Shown here: positions 1,325 through 19,905 of the stretch, in pieces
How the letters are laid out: every line of letters starts with the position of its first letter
Numbering within the stretch: the stretch's first letter is position 1
DNA from: Chromera velia
Taxonomy: Eukaryota
Assembly: GCA_018398765.1 (NCBI GenBank)
Contig: JAHBMJ010000245.1
Coordinates: 112,112 to 132,111, forward strand
Reading direction: 5' to 3'
DNA length: 20,000 nucleotides
Translations under genes and position numbers: made by a program
Notes under the pieces: model-generated
The model's database searches: none
The model's input: the letters and a program-made list of their open reading frames with translations, nothing else
Told to the model about the DNA's origin: nothing

Positions 1325-3583
1325 TCAGGCAAGGACCAACGAAAAGCAGTTTAGCTCGGCCACTCCTTGTCGGAGTTGCTTTCGCCCACTCCCCGAGAGA
1401 CCGTCAAGAGCCGCCTTGTGCAGTTCAAAATCCAAAGGAACGCCTCGTTCCTCAACCTTTCCCCCTATTTTCAAAATCACGTCAACCAGATCATTAGTGA
1501 TAATTCTCATACAGACGACGAAGGACACCCTTACAAGAGACAACATACCGCCCTCTTGCATGGACTTAGAGAGTGCTTTCACGGTGTCCGATGTAACTTG
1601 TGTCTCTGCAAAAATGAGCGTTTTCAGACCTTTCATACCCCCCAGTGCCTCCATCAACATCACTGCCCCCTTGTCCGTCAAGCCGGTTCCCGACAGGTCG
1701 ACGTGCTGCACTGCACCCCCTCTGCCCTCACCTTCCACATTCCCAATTGCCTTCTGCTCTCCCTTCTGTATGGAGAGGAAGTGTCTGAACAGACCGCAAA
1801 GACTTGCCGCGTCTTCGTCTGAGAACTGTGCGCGACCCGCGAAGGAGACGCGAAGCATGCTGCGAGCACTGCGGGAGATGAACTGCTTATACAGAGACTT
1901 CACAGTCGCTGCGTCTGCCCCTTCTTTGAATTTCTTTTTCTTTAAAAAAGAGTTGAACTGCTCCGGAGAGAAGGCGACCTGCACGGGCTGCTGACTCAGG
2001 GAGAGAGCAGCCGAGTGACTTTCGTCGTTTGTCTCACATTCATTTTGCGGAGTGGGCAACCTGGTGGGCAACTCGCAAATCAAACGGCTAGGCTTGAAAC
2101 ATGTCACGCAGGTCTCGAGGGTAGGCCACCCCCTTTCTCCGTATGGGAGCGGATTGGGAGACTTTGGAGGGACTCCTGTGGACCGGAAGACGCGTGTGTG
2201 GGGACTGCTGTAGAGGAGGTCCATTTGTTGGAGGGCTTGTTGGAAGGAGGAGTACTGCTCCCCGTCTCGGGGCCACTGGTAAAGGGACATGAAGTCCCAA
2301 AAGACGAACACTCGCTCTGCATTCTCCCCCTCTGCCCACCACTGAAGATTTAGGGCCTCTACTAGGAGGCGCAGGTGGAACATCTCGGGATCGGGGTGAG
2401 TCTGGGAGAGCCAGCTGAAGGATAGGCAGACTACGGTGAATCCACCTATCTGAGGAAAGCCGGTCTTTGCACTCTCTGCTGCGGCCTGCAGAGTATTCTG
2501 TGCGGCTGCCTCTTCCATTCCGAGCTCTTTCAGCACCCCCAGCACATCTTGCCGTCGGGGAACCGGGCGTCCCTTCTGAAGAAGAAGGCGGAGGACTGGC
2601 AAGGGCCAGAGAGCAATGGCGCCTTGGACAATGAGCTCTTGGATCAGCTTCCATGATTCTGTCTGTGCTGCCATCCAATCAACGGAGGGCTCATCAAGAA
2701 GAGAGGGAGTCATGCCTGCAAGCAAATCCCGAATCTTCAGATGCCGCATGGAGGCTGCCATCTTGACTGCTGTGCTGCCGTCTGGAGCGGTGATGGCGGG
2801 GTCTGCACCGTGCTGCAGGAGCATGATGACCACATCCAGATACCCGTTCTGAGCTGCATACATGAGGGCAGTACAACCCATGATGTTTTTCTCATCCATC
2901 TGTGCCTTCTCTCGGACGAGAAGGCTGATCACCTCCGGGTGGCCATCGTGTGCAGCCAGCATCAGAGAATTGTACCCTCCCCAGGTTTTCACATTCACCC
3001 CTGCCTTCTCTCTCAACAACACGGCCATTACATCGGCGTGCCCCTTGCTAGAGGCCATCATCAGAGCTGTGAAGCCACCGTTATTTTTCCGATGGACATC
3101 CGCTCTGTGTCTCACTAACAGACACACCACATCAGTGTGTCCGTTCTGAGCTGCCAACATCAGGGAGGTGCTTCCATCTTTTCTTTTCTGGTTGACATCA
3201 ACTTTCTCTCGCAGCAGCAGAGCTACCACTTCTGGGTGTCCGTGTTGGGCTGCCATGATGAGAGCGGTGGTGCCACCCTTGGTGAGGCCCAGCTTTGCCT
3301 TCTTTTGTAGCAGAAATTCCACAACCACACAGTGCCCCTTCTCTGCAGCGAGCATCAGGGCCGTGAACCCGCCTCCTGCAAGTAGAAAAGCGGGAGGGAT
3401 GAGCGGAGAGAAATGGATGCACAGTCATACCACGGGAAAACGTGTGGCAAAAGCCACTACGGAGGAGGAAATGTAGATCCCTTGATGTGCCATACAATCG
3501 GACAGACCGAGAGACAGATAGATGGACACATAAACGCAAAGAGAAACAGACAGACAGGTAGATACACAGACAGAGAGACAGAC

Positions 3584-10266: not shown

Positions 10267-11250
10267 TGAAGGGAGGCCGGAAGAAATGAAATCCTTTTAG
10301 CAGACGGGAGGGGACTGAAAGAAGAGTTGTGAAGAAGAAACGGGTGCACCTTTTGCTCCTTGTGTTGACGTGCAAATGCCTCCCTCCCCTGTCGTGTCAG
10401 AAGGAAGAAAGACAGGAAAGGAAAAATCTGTTCCTGTCTCTGTCCATGACACTCTCTCTTGTCAACGGTCTCTTTGCCAAATATTTGTCGGGTTGTTGGA
10501 GGAAGGAAAGAAGTAAGGCAGAGAGAAGGCAAAGAGTAGCCAGTAGCTCCTTCTGCCCGTGTCCTGATCAGCCCCCATTAAATAAACTGCATCTTGCTGA
10601 AGGCAAGGAAAGAAGCATCTTAGTCTGTGCCCACTTTCTTTCCATTTGTCTCGAACAAGTGCGCCGTCGCCTCTTTCCCAAAGAAAGAAGGGGGAGGGGG
10701 GACGGCATGCTTTTTGGGTGACCGCACTCACTAAGACGTTTGATGAATACATGGATGTTTGATTCAATTACTTACGTACTTGGTGGGCCTTCATGGTTTT
10801 TCAGTGTTCTTTGTGTCCCTGCGTTGCGTTGTTGTTGTTGTGTGCTGTGTGTTTCTTCTGACCTTCGTGCCGTGTCGTGTTCGATGAGTGCGCTGGTCGC
10901 CCCTTCGCCCTCTTCCCTGCTGATGCATGTGTGGTCTCTTCACCCGGATGGGCAATGAAAGTGGGAGAAGGGGGCTGTGCCCGATCCAACTAGACAACCA
11001 TATAGACGTGCAGATCAAAATTGATCGATCGATAGATCTGCGTCACAGAGGGCTTGCTTGCATGGGGTGACTGCCTAGTCTTCCTTCGATCGCTGCCTGC
11101 TGTGTTGTTTCTTGGATCAGTGTTCATGAGCGTGTGTACTTGTGGAGAGAGAAAAGAGGAGGGACCATCGACTCATCCCGCTTTTTGTTTCTTTTGTTGA
11201 TTGCGTCAGGCCTGCTTTTCTCTCCTCTTTCTTTCAAGGTGAACGAATGT

Positions 11251-11349
11251 CCTTTGTTGTACATGCGATGCCTTGCATGCATGCGTCTTTCTTTCTTGCC
11301 CTTTGTTGTACATGCGATGCCTTGCATGCATGCGTCTTTCTTTCTTGCC
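11251..11349. repeat. Perfect 49-bp tandem duplication containing TGCATGCA
   Basis: The unit cctttgttgtacatgcgatgccttgcatgcatgcgtctttctttcttgc occurs at 11251-11299 and 11300-11348. Confidence 0.9.
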
Positions 11350-12706
11350 ACCACTGCTCACTGTCGTTGTGAATGCATGGATCAGTTCTCAAATGAATGA
11401 GGGCACATATGTTTCCGGGAAGAACCAAATCGGTTTCTCCCTTCTTTTTTCGCGCACACACTAAATCCTTTTTGTGTCTGCATTCACGGAGAGCCGGACG
11501 GGAAGAATGCTTCTCTTGCTCATTTTTATTCGTTTCTTTCTTCTTCGGCCGTCGACCCACCTGTCGCTTTCAGCGCTTCCTCTCTGTCCCTTCCTTCCCC
11601 CCTCTAACTCTCCCTTGTGAGGTCCGGCAGTCGGGCTCTGTTCTGTTCGTGCTCATGGCCTGCTCCATTGGGGGGCTTGGAACTTGTACAGGCAATTAAT
11701 TGAAAAAGAAATCGGAGGGGAAGCAATCGAGTGAAAGACTGTGGGCAGTACCCACCTCGAGGGTGATCGAAAGACTGATAAGAGGCGGCAGAACGAACAT
11801 GGGTCGAAGTACAGGAAAGAAGCAGGTGGTCATAATGGAGAAAAGACGGTGCCTGACAATCAATATGTGTATGGCGATGTGTCAGAAAAATCATAGAAGG
11901 AATTAAGAGAAGGGAAGCACGAGGATGACATTTGGCGACACATGCCAATTCTATTGGTGTGATTTGTAAAGTTCTTTTTATATAACGGTCCGACCGCGGA
12001 CTTTACACGTTATCTAGCATATTGTAGTTGACATTTTAATTTTTTTTTTAAAAAAACAAGATTTTAAACCTTCAAAAAGAAAAAATAACAACTGACATAT
12101 TAAAAAATTATTAACTGTTATACACATTAATTTGTTTTTGAATCTTTTTAAATGTTTTTTAAATTAATAGAAAATTAACCTAGCTTCTAATAGATTTTTA
12201 AAATATTTTTTTGATCGATCCTAAAGTTATGTTTCGGAGTTTATATTCTTACGTGTACGTCGATGTGGTTAAACCCTTTCTGTCAGTGATAAGTGATTTA
12301 TTAGTGCCCTAGAGCACTGTTTATATATGTTCCGTGGCTCCTTTTCACGAGAATCTACCAGAGTATTTCTTTCTCATTCTTGGAAAAACCTAGGGAAAAA
12401 CCTTTTCAACTTAATATTTTTGCACTGATTTTACTGTATATTAAATTTTGTAATTAAGTACTCGTACGTAAGCCAAAAACTCAGACGCCATAAATATAAG
12501 TTCTAATAAGTTCAACACTCGTCCTGGTACAAATTTAAGCTACAAAATGGCCAAACCTAACGGGCCATCGAGTATATGCATCATCATCATCATTGTCAAA
12601 GTAGAATTTTAGTATAGGAATGCTACGGTGATCTAGCTAGTGATCTAGATTCTGATAAATTGTAAAAAATTTTAGAAAAATTTTTTTGGATTCAATCATA
12701 CTTAGC

Positions 12707-12890
12707 TAGGATTGAGATTAGGATTAGGATTTGTGTTCGGAGGATTGGCCTCCTGCCCCAATGCCGAATGTCCAACGTGCAGCTTCCAAGGAAAGTGCCT
12801 AGATACATCGGACCTCCTTGGCCGGCCCGCACAGGTCTAGCCTGTGCCGCAAATGGTTTACAATTGAAGAAAAAGCACACGCGGCATGAT
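12707..12890 (-). mobile_element. Possible SINE or LINE 3' end with an (AATCCT)n tandem tail
   Basis: A GC-rich island in AT-rich DNA with several hairpins (gcacagg/cctgtgc, ccaagga/tccttgg, ggagg/cctcc). On the minus strand it ends in about four AATCCT-like units (12707-12730). Confidence 0.4.
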
Positions 12891-13189
12891 TTTTTCTTTA
12901 GCTGAATGACTTTCTGGTTTCAATCTGAGGTCATCTGACAGAGGGGCAAAAGGCTTCTAAAAGCAAAATGACTTTTAGTGCTGAAACGTAACAGAGAAAG
13001 GGAGAGAAAGAATGGAGAGAAGAGATTAAGACCAGGTGAGAGAGAGAACACGTTTATTTCACATTTTTCAGAGTAACCAAGAACGTTTCTTTTCCCGATA
13101 AGACTTAATATTGTTGTAATTCGCTCAGCTGTCAAGTGATAAGTGATCATTTAGTGGTGCCCTAGAGCACTGTTGCCGTTTTACCTTAT

Positions 13190-14330
13190 AGAGGTCGCCC
13201 CCGCAAACGACAGGGGGGTGTGCCTCACTCCTGAGGCTCAGACGACACCCCATAGCCCGCCTGGTTTCCCAAGCCACGATCAATTAACTAACAACTGTTC
13301 TGAACCTTGCATGTTTTGGGCCGCTGACTGAGAGGGGACCATTCCAAAGATAATACCAATGACACCAGACGATGGGGCATTTTGGCTTTGTATGTATGCT
13401 TCCTGCATCCTTCTTTCTGCTTTGTTCTCTCCTTCCACTCTTATCTCCCTTCCCTTTTCCATTGCTTCCAGAATCCTCTTGTATTCTTCTTTTTTTCTTT
13501 TGTCTCCTCCCCTTCTCTTTATGATTACTCCATACCTTTATGCCAGAACCGTCTCATCCAGTGAGCTCCCTGGTGCGTACCTTCCTGGGCTCTCCTTAAA
13601 AACTTTTCTGCGGAATGCAGCTGCCTTCCCGAGAAACCCATCTATCGCGGGATGTTGTTCATTCATCAGAAAAGCAAACAGAGTGTCCGTCTGAGGGGCT
13701 CTCCTCTCCCTTCCCTCTTTCTTTCTATAGATTTCTCTTGCTTTCTTTTCTCTCTTCTCGTTCCAGTCTCTTTGCAACCCTTCATACATTCTTACTGTCT
13801 TTTGGTCATATACTGGGCATTCTGTCAACATATAGATCTCATCCTCCAGCACCTCTATATCCATCTATCTTTTATAGAACGGGCATAGTCTCTTTTCCAG
13901 TGGTACCCTCTGTTCTCCTCTCTGTGGCACCTTCTCCCTTATTGCTGCCAGCGTTCTGTCTCCCACTGTGCAAGCCGCTCTTCTTTTATACTCTGCTCTT
14001 GTCGTTATTCTTTCGTAACAAAATAGCACCCTTTCCAGCTTTTCTTTCTCTATTTTTATTCCTTTTCTTGGTCTATCTTCTGATGTTTTCTCAAACAAAG
14101 AGAGGTGAAGTCTATTTTCATTTGCTTTTGTTCTATATATGTCTGCCATGTGAACTCTTCTGTACTTTTCTCTCTCTCTACGGTCTCTCTCTCTCACTCT
14201 TCTCTCAATTCTCCACCTGAAGCTTTCTTTTTTTCTTTCTTTTATCTCTCTGTCTGTCTTTTCTGCAATCCATCTCTCCATTCTGTCTATTCTGTTACGA
14301 TCATCCTAGCTAGAACTAGAGCTGGAATTA
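13190..14330 (-). mobile_element. 5'-truncated, decayed non-LTR retrotransposon (LINE): ORF2 C-terminus plus 3' UTR
   Basis: ORFs 13865-14281 and 13538-13864 share a frame across a TAG. Together they read VPLEKRLCPFYKR*MDIEVLEDEIYMLTECPVY, which matches the LINE ORF2 C-terminal zinc knuckle RxCxxC...EDExHxLxxCPxY with C->Y and H->Y changes. No RT domain or TSD was seen. Confidence 0.75.
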
Positions 14331-16178
14331 TCTAAATTTAGTTAGGACATATAGTAAAGGTACCAGTGGTTATTGTAGGTCTTAAGAGGTTTTTCTGTGT
14401 TAGTTGCATTGCATGCTAGCATTTATTAGTAGTGGTAGCTTATCAATCTCATATAGTCTCATATATGCTAACATATGATTACATATGTCATGTGATACTA
14501 GCATATGATATAACTGGTATTATATGGGGGCCAGGGTCCTCAGAGACCCAAAAATAACTTCAAACAGCCATTTCCAGTTTTTAAAATTGTTTCTAATGAA
14601 TCCTAATGAGTTCATAGCCCTAGTCCCAGCCATATGATATCAGCCTTTAAATATCTTTAAAAACACTTTAATAAGCCTTAGATATACCATTTCTACTGAA
14701 TCAGATATGAAGTTAGTACAGATAAATCAGCTAAGGTCTGCTAAGGTCTAAGTTTATACGTCAATTTACTCACTACATAGGTGTTATAGGTTACTATAGG
14801 CCATAGTATAGCAATCATTAACTCGTTGAGTGAACGCTTCGTGAGTTCCTCGTCTCTCTAGATAATAATTAGTAATAATATATAATAATATTAAATCATA
14901 TTGCAAAAAGAGGAGTATGAAAAAGTATCTCGGCATATATGGCTCACGATGCGTCTAGATGCGTCGAAGGATAGTAAAGGATAAGAACTTTTGTCTGTAC
15001 CCCCCTTTTGACACCTGACTTGACAATGGGAGTACCCACCACGACAGTTAACGACAGCGTAGCTAGACATGCAGTGCGTGGCCATGGTGCCACTGGGCAC
15101 TCTCATGCACGTATGTCCGTAAGACTTTTAGTCTTACATTTTTTTTTTGACACTATATTTTACTATATGATACTTTATGATCATTTTTTTTAGATGTAAA
15201 TGCTAGGCCTATATTTTTGTCACCATCGTCTTTAGGGGTTTGCATTGCTACAATCGATCCTGTATCGATGTACATGAGTTAAAATGCGTGTCATCTTTGC
15301 ATGAGGCTAAAATACAGAAATTAAGCTGAACTGCAGGCCCCCTTCGATCGGGCAATAGTGTATGATTCATAATCTTATTCTTCGATAGTCCAATCTCACT
15401 CTCAGCGCATTACATTTTTGGGAAGCCGAATCATCAGAATTGACAAAACACAAAGTTTGTGTATATACGCTTCTATACTTAGTTTGTCCGCCATGTTGAT
15501 GTTCTATGGGATGTTGGACGCGCTGTCACAGCATTCGACAGCGACTCAGTATGACAGAAAATGACAGAAAAGCCTTTGACAGAGCTATATAGGTGCCAAG
15601 GTCAAAAGCTTTTTTTGACACTCCCGCGTATCGGTCCCGAAAAGACTCGCATCCTTCAATAGCTCGGACGCGATATAGCTTGGTTTGGATATGCATGCAT
15701 GCAGCGAGATTAACTTCAATTTGGGCTTCCTTTTGTCAAGTTCATCCTCCCAATGATGTTTTCTGTGCGCCTACTCTCGTGTATCTGTCAATCAGTCAAT
15801 ATAAACTACTATAAACTAGTATAAACTGGTCTTCCAACAAATGACCGGTGAAGTTAAAAAGGTGTGTGTCTTGAAACGCTTCACAAACAATCTCAAAGGT
15901 GAGCTAGTGCCTTGACTTTAATGTCAGAAGATGATTTTCTACTTTTTCCTAATTTATTCGGAATTTTCTGTCCCCCGCCTCACCTTCAATATAAATGTAT
16001 GACAAAACCCTCGATCATCATATATGAATTTTTCAAAAAAAATGTTGCACTTTTAGCCGCCAGCCCAAGTAAAAGCTTACTTGAGTGAAGGAGCCGAAAT
16101 TTCTCACTGCCACTGCATGAGCCGATCCGATCCGCCAGACTTACTTTCGCGCGCAAGGCACGCGAACTGACTTGTTAA

Positions 16179-16930
16179 TAGGCAATCCGAATCATGAAGA
16201 GTCATCCAATACAAATTCGTATGCACAGATGCTTTCCGGGGCCGCACACAGTAGAATTCCGTGAGCGTGTCGATCCTTCCGTCTATACATGCATTCATCT
16301 CTCAGTTAAGCTTCCACACACCTGCTTTGACCGTGAAGTTGGAACGTTTATAGATCTTTGCATGAAATAGCTCAGCAGCAGAGACCCTGCCTGTGCGTAA
16401 TGCAGGGCGGGCGGTGCAGATCTTGTCGAGCGGATACAACAGGTAAGGAAAACAAGTAACAGTATACGTCTGGCACACCCTTTCTGTGCTTTGAGTGAAT
16501 GCATTGCTACATGACAACATGTCGTCTTCTGGAGAGTGGACATCTTGAAAATTGGATACTTGATTGAAGATCCCCTATATTTTGCAAAGATTACCCGACA
16601 GGTTTGAGGTCAAAATACGGCTGTTTTGGTTATTCTGGTAGTAAAAGCATGTGTAGAAAGAAGCAGAGGGGAGGAAGAATACAATGCAGATTTCACTTTT
16701 TTGCCTTCTTCTCTGTATGTGCAACCCCCTTCCTTGCAGAGCTCTCTTTTCTCTGACTGCCTGCCTGGTGACTGCAAGCGGGTCCGCCATTGGAGTGCTT
16801 GTACTGAGACCACCATAATAGAAAAGAATAGAGACAAAGTCCACAGCCAAGATGCCCTTCAAAAATGGGGGTCATTTTTTTTGTTAGTGCAGCTGCCATA
16901 CATTTGACTCTTCATTAGTTGGATTACCTA
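16179..16930. mobile_element. Non-autonomous DNA transposon (MITE-like), copy 1
   Basis: The left end taggcaatccgaatcatgaagagtca matches the reverse complement of the right end (taggtaatccaactaatgaagagtca) at 22/26 positions. The outer TA is a probable TSD. It is about 96% identical to 17442-18192. Confidence 0.85.
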
Positions 16931-17441
16931 AAAAAATTTTATTTCAAGACAGAGAGAGAGAAGAGAGCAAAGATGATTCGATATGTTGCAGTGCTGGCAT
17001 ACCCTCTTCTTTTATGAAACTTTCAAAGTGTTTTGCTCTGTCTGCTTGAGGAGACAGAAGTGAATATGTGCTTCTCTGCTGTTTTTACAGGCCTGTCAGA
17101 CGCCTCCCTGACCACGCGCACACCCGGCCCCTCCTTTCATTGCACTCTTTGCTCTCTTTGGTCAGTAACTGACTGTCTGCCACTTCTCTCCACTCTATGT
17201 TCTATGCATGGTGGATTCTTTCCTCTCTCGTCTGTCTCTCTTGTCCCGTATTGGTCTCTTTTACTCGCAAACCCCGCAAAATTGTCGGTACGACGAAGGA
17301 TTTTTTCTTTTCTTCTCTTTTGCTCCCCCTGTAGCAGGCCAAAAAATGGGGAAAAAATTGACACAGTTGGATTTTGCCTAGTGCATCTTTTGTCACAGCC
17401 CCGACTTCCCACATTGTTCCTTTCCAAAAATAAAGTTTCTT

Positions 17442-18192
17442 TAGGCAATCCGAATCATGAAGAGTCATCCAATACAAATTCGTATGCACAGGTGCTTTCC
17501 GGGGCCGCACACAGTAGAATTCCGTGAGCGTGTCGATCCCTCCGTCTATACATGCATTCATCTGTCAGTTAAGCTTCCACACACCTGCTTTGACCGTGAA
17601 GCCGGAACGTTTATAGATCTTTGCATGAAACAGCTCAGCAGCAGAGACCCTGCCTGTGCGTAATGCAGGGCGGGCAGTGTAGATCCTGTCGAGCGGATGC
17701 AACAGGTAAGGAAAACAAGTAACAGTATACGTCTGGCACACCCTTTCTATGCTTTGTGTGAATGTATTGCTACATGACAACATATCGTCATCTAGAGAGT
17801 GGACATCTTAAAAATTGGATACTTGATTGAAGATTCCCTATATTTTGCAAAGATTACCCGACAGGTTTGAGGTCAAAATACGGCTATTTTGGTTACTCTA
17901 GTAGCAAAAGCATGTGTAGAAAGAAGCAGAGGGGAGGAAGAATGCAATGCAGATTTCACTTTTTTGCCTTCTTCTCTGTATGTGCAACCCCCTTCCTTGC
18001 AGAGCTTTCTTTTCTCTGACTGCCTGCCTGGTGACTGCAAGCGGGTCCGCCATTGGAGTGCTTGTACTGAGACCACCATAATAGAAAAGAATAGAGACAA
18101 AGTCCACAGCCAGATACCCTTCAAAAATGGGGGTCATTTTTTTTGCTAGTGCAGCTGCCATACATTTGACTCTTTATTAGTTGGATTACCTA
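17442..18192. mobile_element. Non-autonomous DNA transposon (MITE-like), copy 2, same orientation
   Basis: It has the same TIRs and TA ends, and homology to copy 1 stops exactly at the TIRs. By eye it differs from copy 1 by 27 substitutions and one 1-bp indel. Confidence 0.85.
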
Positions 18193-18745
18193 TAGCCTAC
18201 TTCTGACCGTTTGCCGCCCCGCGGCGACAACCGTGCCTCTCATGCAGGGTGCAAGTCGAGGCCCGGCAGTGGACCGCGGGGTGGCCCGAAATATAAATCC
18301 CATCCTATTCTACATAAGCCGGTTAAGGCGTTTTGAGAACAAAATGACTATTAAGTCAGGTAATAAAAAGAAAAACTGTACATACATCATCAACTAGATC
18401 ATCAATTAAACTATTAGTCAATATTAGATTCAATAACCCTCAATATATCTAAATGAATAGTAATAAAAATGAATCAAACTATATTAAAATGATTATTCAT
18501 GAATGTACACACCATAAAACATTGTTCAATATTGTCAAATATAATATTAATTAATCAAATCACAGATCTGACAGAGAAAAGAAGGAAAAGGCGGAAAGCA
18601 TTAGAAGCACAAAGTCTTCTCTCCTCTGGACTTGGAGACGCCTCAACCCATTTGACCCCCCCCCTTTATCATCTGTCAGCTGCATTTGACATATGTCTGT
18701 ACACAAAGCAAATATGTGATTGATGTGCGATTGATATACGATTGA

Positions 18746-19905
18746 TTATCGTTTTCTGAAGTCGCAGTCACTTTTATGACCATCGGAATCCAGATTTGAG
18801 GTGTATTGATGAAGGAAAGCTGCATAGTCACGGACTCGCCCTTGTGTGCAAGTCTATCCCCTTGTCCGCATACTACTCCTCACCCCCCCCCTAACCGACA
18901 ATCGGACCTCCTTTGCTACTGCAATGATAGAGGAGAACATAGATCTCTCCGGCACATCTATGCCCGCTTTGTCCTCTTGCTTCTTCTCAACATGAAGGTC
19001 TGTAAGAGGCTCCCCCTCTTCCTTCTTTTCAACACCGCCGCCTTCATTCTCTTCAAAATCCCCCTCGCTACCTGAAAAGTCGGACTCCGACATCTCGTCT
19101 GACTCATCAACAAGACCATCATCACCCTCACCTCTTTCCTTCTTTCCTTCCTCACCTCTCTCCTTCTCTCCTTCCTCACCTCTCTCCTTCTCTCCTTCCT
19201 CACCTCTCTCTTTTTCTCCTTCCTCACCTCTCTCCTTCTCTCCTTCCTCAACTCTCTCCTTCTCCCCTTTCTCACGTCTCTCCTTCTCTCCTTCTTCAAC
19301 TCTCTCCTTCTCTTCTTCCTCACGTCTCTCCTTCTCTCCTTCCTCAACTCTCTCCTTCTCTCCTTCCTCACGTCTCTCCTTCTCTCCTTCCTCAGCTCTC
19401 TCTTTCTCTCCCTCTTCACGTCTTTCCTTCTCTCCTTCCTCACCTCTCTCCTGCTCGCCCGGAGGAGCGTCAAGCAGGCGCACCCGGTGAAGCCTTTCAA
19501 AGACTTCCTCCAAAACGATTCGGCAGGTGGATTTAAGGATAGAACCGAGACGCCCCCCTTTTGTCTTTGTTCTCGCTTCCTGCAGAGCGGAAGTGAAAGA
19601 CGCAAGGTCTGCAGCGGACTTAAAGGTTCGTCGATTCCAGTGCTCTTATGATCGGGATGTTGGATGTTTAAACTGCAGGAAAACCATATCGGCCCCCTCT
19701 CCTCCATCATACAGGACCTCGAAGCAGTCTATCTCACTGTCTTTTGCTTGTCCCTCTTTATCCTGCCAGTACCAATGCATTGGTGCATACATAACCATCG
19801 TGCGCTTCATCCAATACGAGAGGAAAGCAACAGCAACTTTCGGGAGCTAGTAGCTGTTTGTGGTCATCGCCAGAAAGAGAAGTTCAAGCGCTTGACGGCT
19901 TTTGA
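18746..19905 (-). pseudogene. Terminal exon of a decayed gene continuing past the window edge, with a possible OTU-like C-terminal half and charged 8-aa repeats
   Basis: An acceptor (tg)n-cag| lies at 19905. One frame reads KSRQALELLFLAMTTNSY*LPKVAVAFLSYW...DMVFLQFKHPTSRS*EHWNRR...MRTRG*TCTQGRVRDYAAF...RKR*. In-frame stops are at 19847-49 (TAG), 19646-48 (TAA) and 18854-56 (TAG), with no frameshift. Confidence 0.6.
19124..19450 (-). repeat. 24-bp coding minisatellite, 13 copies plus a partial copy of ERxEEGEK
   Basis: Visible in the ORF 18854-19513 translation. Alternation of R with A/V suggests a 48-bp higher-order unit. Confidence 0.9.

What the first reader, a model, noticed from the sequence alone, without database searches (positions are those of the whole stretch)
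16179..18192. RIP-like CpA/TpG->TpA hypermutation between two neighbouring MITE copies
Seen: a by-eye alignment of the two ~750-bp copies gives 27 substitutions, of which 24 are transitions. 14 are CpA/TpG<->TpA (e.g. aaaTag/aaaCag, tctGga/tctAga, cttGaa/cttAaa, cttCat/cttTat), against about 5 CpT, 3 CpC and 2 CpG. TpA alleles occur in both copies (about 4 in copy 1, 10 in copy 2) and come from both strands. Established: this spectrum is the hallmark of fungal repeat-induced point mutation (RID-dependent, CpA-biased in Neurospora), whereas ordinary 5mC decay hits CpG. Inference: the gene style looks non-fungal (chromerid-like), so this may be a RIP-like, repeat-targeted defence or CpA-methylation mutagenesis in a lineage where I do not know of it being described.
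Basis: partly seen in the sequence, partly recalled or inferred. Interest (0 to 1): 0.88.

Follow-up and report, generated by a model that had tools for sequence, protein, structure and literature searches.

The report
Mild C-to-T decay of Chromera repeats
In the alga Chromera velia, these two copies of a small transposon and the repeats next to them have drifted from C to T at CpA and just as much at CpG, which likely reflects ordinary decay of methylated repeats rather than the fungal RIP defence, though a weak RIP-like process is not excluded.

Summary
The counts are right: 24 transitions (14 at CpA/TpG), 3 transversions and 1 indel between the copies. The window is Chromera velia. After normalising, the CpA excess in the pair is modest (1.65x, p=0.018; four-class p=0.12). 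Contigs of public runs set the direction as family C/G to window T/A. In 50 independent changes in neighbouring repeats CpG is hit at least as hard as CpA (1.86x against 1.41x; CpT 0.64x, CpC 0.49x). Only 3-8% of CpA sites are hit, RIP indices are negative and strands are not coordinated, so this is not canonical RIP. Best reading (0.5): deamination of methylated repeats in CG and CA contexts. Rivals: a genome-wide C-to-T bias with a generic CpR context (0.3); a weak RIP-like process (0.15; the sister alga Vitrella has a DNMT4-clade protein). The single-copy control and Chromera's own DNMTs could not be tested. The two 'MITEs' plus their 511-bp spacer are a piece of a 1,263-bp unit that is repeated head to tail (or circular) in roughly hundreds of copies.

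The parts
16181..16928 (.). MITE-like element, copy 1 (748 bp, between TA dinucleotides at 16179-16180 and 16929-16930)
   Evidence: no Rfam family at E<1 here; 11 transitions where this copy has the T/A allele
16181..16204 (+). left terminal inverted repeat (24 bp; 20 of 24 match the right one)
   Evidence: print-out; self-BLAST 16905-16944 against 17467-17428
16905..16928 (-). right terminal inverted repeat of copy 1
16931..17441 (.). 511-bp spacer. It is as deep in the runs as the element and is joined to element ends in the majority form of the genome.
   Evidence: tables 2, 5, 5c, 8 (16935 onward was laid)
17444..18190 (.). MITE-like element, copy 2 (TA at 17442-17443 and 18191-18192)
   Evidence: 13 transitions with the T/A allele; 8 of them are listed as places where the family has C/G
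18330..19100 (.). another multi-copy repeat; the window copy has T/A where the family has C/G at 22 of the 24 listed places (10 CpA, 6 CpG, 4 CpT, 2 CpC)
12716..14240 (.). nested multi-copy repeats; of 39 listed places, 24 are family C/G to window T/A (10 CpA, 6 CpG, 5 CpT, 3 CpC), 7 are reverse and 8 are transversions

Best explanation
Repeats in this Chromera velia window have drifted from C to T on both strands at CpG and CpA about 2-3 times faster than at CpT and CpC, likely because repeat cytosines are methylated in CG and CA contexts and then deaminate slowly, one site at a time. Shown: the direction, the low density (about 2% per copy in the pair), the context order CpG >= CpA > CpT > CpC, and the lack of strand coordination. 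Inferred: the methylation, its restriction to repeats, and the enzyme (a DNMT1-superfamily or DNMT4-type protein is a candidate only because Vitrella has one). The pair itself is likely one insertion, element-spacer-element, lifted through its outer inverted repeats from a head-to-tail array of a 1,263-bp unit and placed at a TA. Some differences between the copies are older array variants and others are private.
For: Direction: majority differences over 10320-16175 in run X1 are 73 family C/G to window T/A, 15 reverse and 21 transversions (109 places; X2 gives 73, 13, 18). Of 69 listed rows outside the two copies, 50 are forward, 9 reverse and 10 transversions. Family-wide, 191 of 210 variant places in X1 and 184 of 202 in X2 are transitions. 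Context in the 50 independent changes: CpA 1.41x, CpG 1.86x, CpT 0.64x, CpC 0.49x; CpA+CpG p=0.0005. Three adjacent hits lie in one CGCG run at 13395-13397. CpG is depleted in genes and most repeats (observed/expected 0.49-0.81) but is 2.16 in single-copy AT-rich DNA at 11985-12280 (20 counts over both strands), where the repeat spectrum would give 0.60 at equilibrium. A single-copy transcribed stretch (10320-11913) has GC 0.49 and TpA 0.33, far from the simulated equilibrium of GC 0.18 and TpA 1.14. In Zymoseptoria, Dim2 methylates TEs in the order CG > CA > CC and raises C-to-T in repeats (PMC8016269, passages). Vitrella CEM15752 was classed as DNMT4 (PMC10538959, passages and supplement tree).
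Against: No methylation data and no Chromera DNMT were seen. A review gives faster mutation at pyrimidine-purine steps as a general trend in bacterial experiments, and cites a paper whose title says CpG is highly mutagenic in unmethylated S. pombe (PMC6330053, passages), so the context needs no methylation. The single-copy stretch 11985-12280 has GC 0.25, near the 0.18 equilibrium, which a genome-wide bias would also give. Two AT-rich stretches (1-900 and 12321-12715) show no CpG loss (0.99, 0.88). Only 40 of 246 and 40 of 162 rows were shown by the tool, chosen by support. Majority letters are not always ancestral. A DNMT survey found no DNMT4 outside diatoms in the MMETSP transcriptomes (PMC9998398 section 7); whether Chromera was in its set was not established (no mention in 12 of 23 supplementary files).
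Confidence: 0.5

Rival explanations
1. The spectrum is the ordinary genome-wide mutation bias of C. velia (strong C:G to T:A, faster at pyrimidine-purine steps). It shows in repeats only because they are unselected and have a family consensus to compare with.
For: The context is CpR rather than CpA, as in the general YR trend (PMC6330053). Single-copy DNA at 11985-12280 is AT-rich (GC 0.25) against a context-free equilibrium of 0.17. There is no strand coordination and divergence is low.
Against: Transitions are 81-91% of changes, which is high for unmethylated genomes (recalled, not from a call). That same single-copy stretch keeps a CpG excess of 2.16, and the single-copy transcribed stretch has TpA 0.33 and CpA 1.22, though selection or gene conversion could explain the latter.
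Confidence: 0.3
2. A weak RIP-like process: a DNMT4/RID-type enzyme recognises repeated DNA and mutates CpA, on top of separate CpG decay.
For: CpA is above expectation in the pair and in both larger independent repeats (1.65x, 1.50x, 1.42x; pooled 35 of 74 against 23.4, p=0.004). CAT is the most frequent context (15 against 6.4, not corrected for 16 classes). 18 of 24 pair transitions fall in one 350-bp stretch (p=0.044, width chosen after looking). 14300-15000 has TpA 1.27 and CpG 0.50, close to the simulated end state. Vitrella has a DNMT4-clade protein and only 1.5 Mb of TEs (PMC4501334).
Against: 3-8% of CpA sites are hit; RIP indices are negative; CpA is enriched in the element (1.3), whereas Neurospora TE consensuses are depleted (PMC3318451). 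Same-strand neighbours are 35 of 66 against a null of 36.3. Dim2-dependent mutation in Zymoseptoria is over 98% at CA; here 35 of 74 are. A tandem unit of roughly hundreds of copies keeps the C/G letters, and Chromera has about 30 Mb of TEs.
Confidence: 0.15
3. The differences are assembly or sequencing errors in a collapsed repeat.
For: The region is highly repetitive; some copy-2 alleles (for example at 17794) have no depth in contigs of X1 or X2.
Against: Copy-2 alleles appear at about single-copy depth in separate runs (17564: 33 in X1 and 16 in X2; 17749 and 17886: 18 in X2), and two alleles (17810, 17835) are shared with a subfamily. Contigs drop rare variants. X1 and X2 match 14084-15935 with no differences in the listed pieces.
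Confidence: 0.03

Closest known systems
Repeat-induced point mutation (Neurospora crassa; RID/DNMT4 and DIM-2)
   Same: C:G to T:A changes on both strands of repeats; CpA above expectation; duplicates longer than 400 bp and over 80% alike (PMC3318451).
   Different: CpG is hit as hard as CpA; density is low; CpA is not depleted and RIP indices are negative; no strand coordination; large TE load and a C-rich many-copy tandem unit persist; enzyme and timing are unknown.
Dim2-dependent mitotic CA mutation in Zymoseptoria tritici (PMC8016269)
   Same: Repeats that gain C-to-T at CA; the methylation order there (CG, then CA) resembles the mutation order here.
   Different: There over 98% of C-to-T changes are at CA and CG is spared; here 35 of 74 are at CA and CG is not spared. 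No 5mC has been shown in Chromera.
5mC deamination decay of methylated TEs in plants and basidiomycetes
   Same: Slow, dispersed C-to-T changes with CpG elevated (for basidiomycetes PMC3318451; for plants recalled).
   Different: No CHG excess here (13 against 14.6 expected); the non-CG part is CA-weighted.
TA-targeting MITEs (Tc1/mariner-type, label recalled) and TE-derived tandem arrays (PMC5932611, abstract)
   Same: Terminal inverted repeats, TA on each side, many copies, head-to-tail units.
   Different: The repeated unit is the element plus a 511-bp spacer that also occurs joined to itself without the element. No partner transposase was identified.

Membership tests
Canonical RIP | Directional C:G to T:A transitions in repeats | tested here: met
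   73 forward, 15 reverse and 21 transversions of 109 places (X1); 50, 9 and 10 of 69 listed rows
Canonical RIP | One dinucleotide context (CpA) stands out after normalising | tested here: not met
   independent set CpG 1.86x, CpA 1.41x; pooled 1.50x and 1.49x
Canonical RIP | Dense mutation; CpA depletion and positive RIP indices | tested here: not met
   4 and 10 of 124 CpA sites hit; composite index -0.76 and -0.63, CpA observed/expected 1.3
Canonical RIP | Strand-coordinated clusters within a copy (feature recalled) | tested here: not met
   35 of 66 neighbouring changes on the same strand, null 36.3, p=0.67; copy 1 has 8:3 and copy 2 has 5:8, p=0.12
Canonical RIP | Restricted to duplicated DNA | tested here: inconclusive
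   X1 and X2 show 0-1 differences in single-copy pieces; X13 shows 12 in about 1,545 nt, but those rows were not printed; composition gives indirect, mixed evidence
Canonical RIP | RID/DNMT4 gene required | not testable with these tools
   no genome held and no suitable stored query protein; Vitrella has a DNMT4-clade protein
Canonical RIP | Acts before meiosis | not testable with these tools
   needs crosses or mutation-accumulation lines
5mC deamination decay of repeats | C-to-T elevated at CpG | tested here: met
   13 of 50 against 7.0 expected in independent repeats; not seen in the pair alone (2 of 24 against 3.0)
5mC deamination decay of repeats | 5mC present on the repeats | not testable with these tools
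   no methylome found in searches
MITE | Terminal inverted repeats | tested here: met
   24 bp, 20 of 24 match
MITE | Target-site duplication and empty site | tested here: met
   TA on both sides of both copies; joint 17443 to 16938 without the element, listed for X1 only, depth 266 (table 5c)
MITE | Short, non-coding, many copies | tested here: met
   748 bp; longest stop-to-stop frame 104 aa; depth in the thousands against 12-27 for single-copy DNA
MITE | Autonomous partner transposase with the same ends | not testable with these tools
   no genome held

The most novel reading that the evidence does not exclude
Chromerid algae run a DNMT4/RID-dependent, homology-guided CpA mutator, a weak RIP outside fungi. 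It would leave a 1.5-fold CpA excess on young Chromera repeats and TpA-rich relics such as 14300-15000, and might keep Vitrella nearly free of transposons.
Probability: 0.15. Interest if true: 0.85.

Novelty: new member of a known kind. Interest (0 to 1): 0.38.

Why it matters
My searches found no paper on cytosine methylation or repeat mutation in Chromera. Woo et al. 2015 has no occurrence of 'methylation' or 'methyltransferase' in its main text. Even the ordinary reading predicts CG plus CA methylation of repeats in the closest photosynthetic relative of apicomplexans, which one sequencing run could test. The function of non-fungal DNMT4 enzymes is stated to be unknown (PMC9998398). If Chromera has one and the CpA excess is limited to repeats, chromerids become a place to test whether RIP-type defence predates fungi; a transfection method for Chromera has been reported (PMC12407925, search listing only).

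Tried and rejected
No whole genome is held, so no genome-wide family alignment or DNMT search was possible. A 16-nt pattern in metagenome contigs gave 120 loci; BLAST of the element against them gave at most 28 aligned bases, so they are chance hits. Longer patterns found nothing in viral contigs or prokaryote genomes. No tRNA lies in the window, and Rfam over 11800-19200 gave one chance hit at E=0.73, so the tandem unit is not a known RNA-gene array by these tests. An LTR/TRIM reading was rejected: the ends are GG..CC inverted repeats with TA, and element and spacer have about equal depth. A plant-type CHG pattern was rejected (13 against 14.6). The single-copy control failed: X1 and X2 are near-identical to the window there, and the 12 differences in X13 were among the unprinted rows. 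I fetched E. coli dcm as a possible seed but did not search with it, because a word-based search would be swamped by bacterial enzymes. No RNA holder was listed for the stretch. X5 holds the element at depth 9-14 only and was not used as a separate organism. Look-ups in earlier scan notes by place, sequence and words gave nothing on this genome. Supplements not seen: 11 of 23 files of PMC9998398, 4 of 16 of PMC4501334, and those of bioRxiv 2021.11.30.470311 (closed); they may list Chromera DNMTs.

Full report
Observation. Aligning 16179-16930 with 17442-18192 gives 24 transitions, 3 transversions and 1 indel. Contexts of the transitions are 14 CpA, 5 CpT, 2 CpC, 2 CpG and 1 ambiguous between CpT and CpC; TpA alleles number 4 in copy 1 and 10 in copy 2. 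CpA makes up 124 of 350 cytosine sites in the element, so 8.5 of 24 are expected: p=0.018 one-sided, p=0.12 for the four-class test. Only 4 and 10 of 124 CpA sites are hit. RIP indices of the copies are negative (-0.76, -0.63) and CpA is enriched, at 1.3 times expectation.

Organism. The ankyrin-repeat protein at 1325-3424 has 10 relatives besides itself, all named Chromera velia CCMP2878. No genome is held for the window, so I used contigs of public runs.

What the two copies are. Each copy is about 748 bp with 24-bp imperfect inverted ends (20 of 24) and TA on both sides. Laying four runs on 16935-19100 shows that the 511-bp piece between them is about as deep as the element. The element's right end joins the spacer's start in most of the depth (X2: 5,152 against about 5,517), and the spacer's end joins the element's start (X3 record 20, no differences). 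Single-copy depth is 12-15 in X2 and about 27 in X1. The tool warns that depth is no copy number, but the ratio points to hundreds of copies of a 1,263-bp head-to-tail unit; contigs cannot tell an array from a circle. X1 also lists a spacer-to-spacer joint with one TA and no element (depth 266), which is an empty site. I infer that a TA-targeting MITE landed in a ~510-bp tandem repeat, the new unit was amplified, and an element-spacer-element piece moved here through its outer ends. Two copy-2 alleles (17810, 17835) are shared with a subfamily (about 1,750 of the depth in X2), so not all differences arose in place.

Direction. Of the 13 transitions where copy 2 has T/A, 8 are printed as places where the family has C/G (40 of 246 rows shown). 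Piece counts imply the same for 18175, and imply that copy 2 equals the family at five places where copy 1 has T/A (X3 records 17 and 20); that part is inferred. Over 10320-16175, majority differences in X1 are 73 family C/G to window T/A, 15 reverse and 21 transversions. Family-wide, 191 of 210 (X1) and 184 of 202 (X2) variant places are transitions.

Context in independent data. I used the 29 printed rows outside copy 2 and all 40 printed rows (40 of 162), 69 rows in all: 50 forward, 9 reverse, 10 transversions. The 50 forward changes are CpA 21 (14.9 expected), CpG 13 (7.0), CpT 10 (15.7) and CpC 6 (12.4); CpA p=0.046, CpA+CpG p=0.0005. Pooled with the pair, the factors are CpA 1.49, CpG 1.50, CpT 0.66, CpC 0.51. 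The CpA excess therefore repeats, but it is half of a CpR excess, and the pair's low CpG count was small-number noise. There is no CHG excess (13 against 14.6) and no strand coordination (35 of 66 against 36.3). Spatial clustering in the pair is marginal (p=0.044, width chosen after looking).

Is it limited to repeats? Not settled. X1 and X2 match the window in single-copy pieces (0-1 differences). X13 differs at 12 places in about 1,545 nt, but those rows were not printed. Composition is mixed. A simulation with the repeat spectrum ends at GC 0.18, TpA 1.14, CpA 0.75, CpG 0.60. The single-copy transcribed stretch has GC 0.49, TpA 0.33 and CpA 1.22, far from that. Single-copy 11985-12280 has GC 0.25, near it, but CpG 2.16, unlike it. 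14300-15000 has TpA 1.27 and CpG 0.50, close to it. 1-900 and 12321-12715 show no CpG loss.

Mechanism. I favour slow deamination of cytosines methylated at CG and CA in repeats (0.5): it gives the direction, the order of contexts, the scattered two-strand hits and the transition excess. The methylation and the enzyme are inferred. A genome-wide bias (0.3) remains, because faster mutation at pyrimidine-purine steps is a general trend in bacterial experiments and CpG mutability is reported without methylation (PMC6330053, passages and a reference title). A weak RIP-like process (0.15) is not excluded. Vitrella brassicaformis CEM15752 groups with diatom DNMT4 and was classed as DNMT4; the authors say that in their IQ-TREE tree this clade splits from canonical DNMT4 (PMC10538959: passages, table row, supplement 7 part 2). 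Chromera itself did not appear in that paper's supplements.

Comparison. Neurospora RIP makes CpA an outlier and depletes CpA in TE consensuses (PMC3318451, passages); neither holds here. Zymoseptoria Dim2 gives over 98% of C-to-T changes at CA and spares CG (PMC8016269, passages); here 35 of 74 are at CA and CG is hit equally. It works like RIP only in outcome, in that repeats lose C; it fails three tested defining features and should not be filed as RIP. A 2026 review calls RID fungal only (PMC13297926, passages), and the function of diatom DNMT4 is given as unknown (PMC9998398, passages and section 7).

Literature. No paper holds both 'Chromera velia' and 'repeat-induced point mutation'. 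Searches listed nothing on chromerid methylation or repeat mutation. Woo et al. 2015 (PMC4501334, passages; 12 of 16 supplements searched) gives about 30 Mb of TEs in Chromera and 1.5 Mb in Vitrella, with no mention of methylation. PMC12695648 names Chromera only in its supplements, a table and a tree of adenine methylases; PMC5890265 has no mention; bioRxiv 2021.11.30.470311 notes chromodomain-fused TEs in Chromera; PMC5932611 was seen as abstract and outline only. The library lacks most subscription papers. Earlier scan notes held nothing on this genome; two unchecked diatom notes describe the opposite change.

Verdict. The signal is real and mild, apparently undescribed for this organism, and most likely a new case of a known process. 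Interest 0.38. The RIP-outside-fungi reading has probability 0.15 and would deserve 0.85.

Noticed in passing
window 16179-18192: The 1,263-bp unit (element plus spacer) is joined head to tail in most of its depth (X2: joint 5,152 against about 5,517 for the unit; single-copy depth 12-15), which suggests several hundred copies as an array or a circle. A spacer-to-spacer joint without the element is listed for X1.
   Followed up: partly
window 1325-3424 (-): A long open frame with ankyrin repeats; all 10 relatives found are C. velia paralogues at 38-50% identity. Fourfold sites avoid TpA and CpG.
   Followed up: partly
window 10320-11913: A single-copy stretch covered by one contig of run X13 (guessed RNA) with 12 other letters, a 5-base gap and a 49-base skip at a local tandem duplication (11250-11350). 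X13 seems to be another strain, useful as the missing control.
   Followed up: partly
window 11985-12280: Single-copy, AT-rich DNA (GC 0.25) with CpG at 2.16 times expectation, unlike the rest of the window; it may be an unmethylated regulatory stretch.
   Followed up: no
window 12280-12321 and 13129-13174: A shared ~45-bp end motif of a high-depth repeat family. Other copies have AT-rich flanks and short tandem heptamers before the end.
   Followed up: no
window 14300-15000: AT-rich, low-copy stretch with TpA 1.27 and CpG 0.50, the only part close to the simulated end state of the repeat spectrum.
   Followed up: partly
window 19130-19460: About 14 copies of a 24-bp unit inside minus-strand open frames rich in Glu/Lys/Arg.
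   Followed up: no
earlier notes e1-7620964 and e1-7614841 (other genomes): Unchecked notes report the opposite change (TpA to CpA/TpG) in diatom repeats; diatoms are the other protist group with DNMT4.
   Followed up: no
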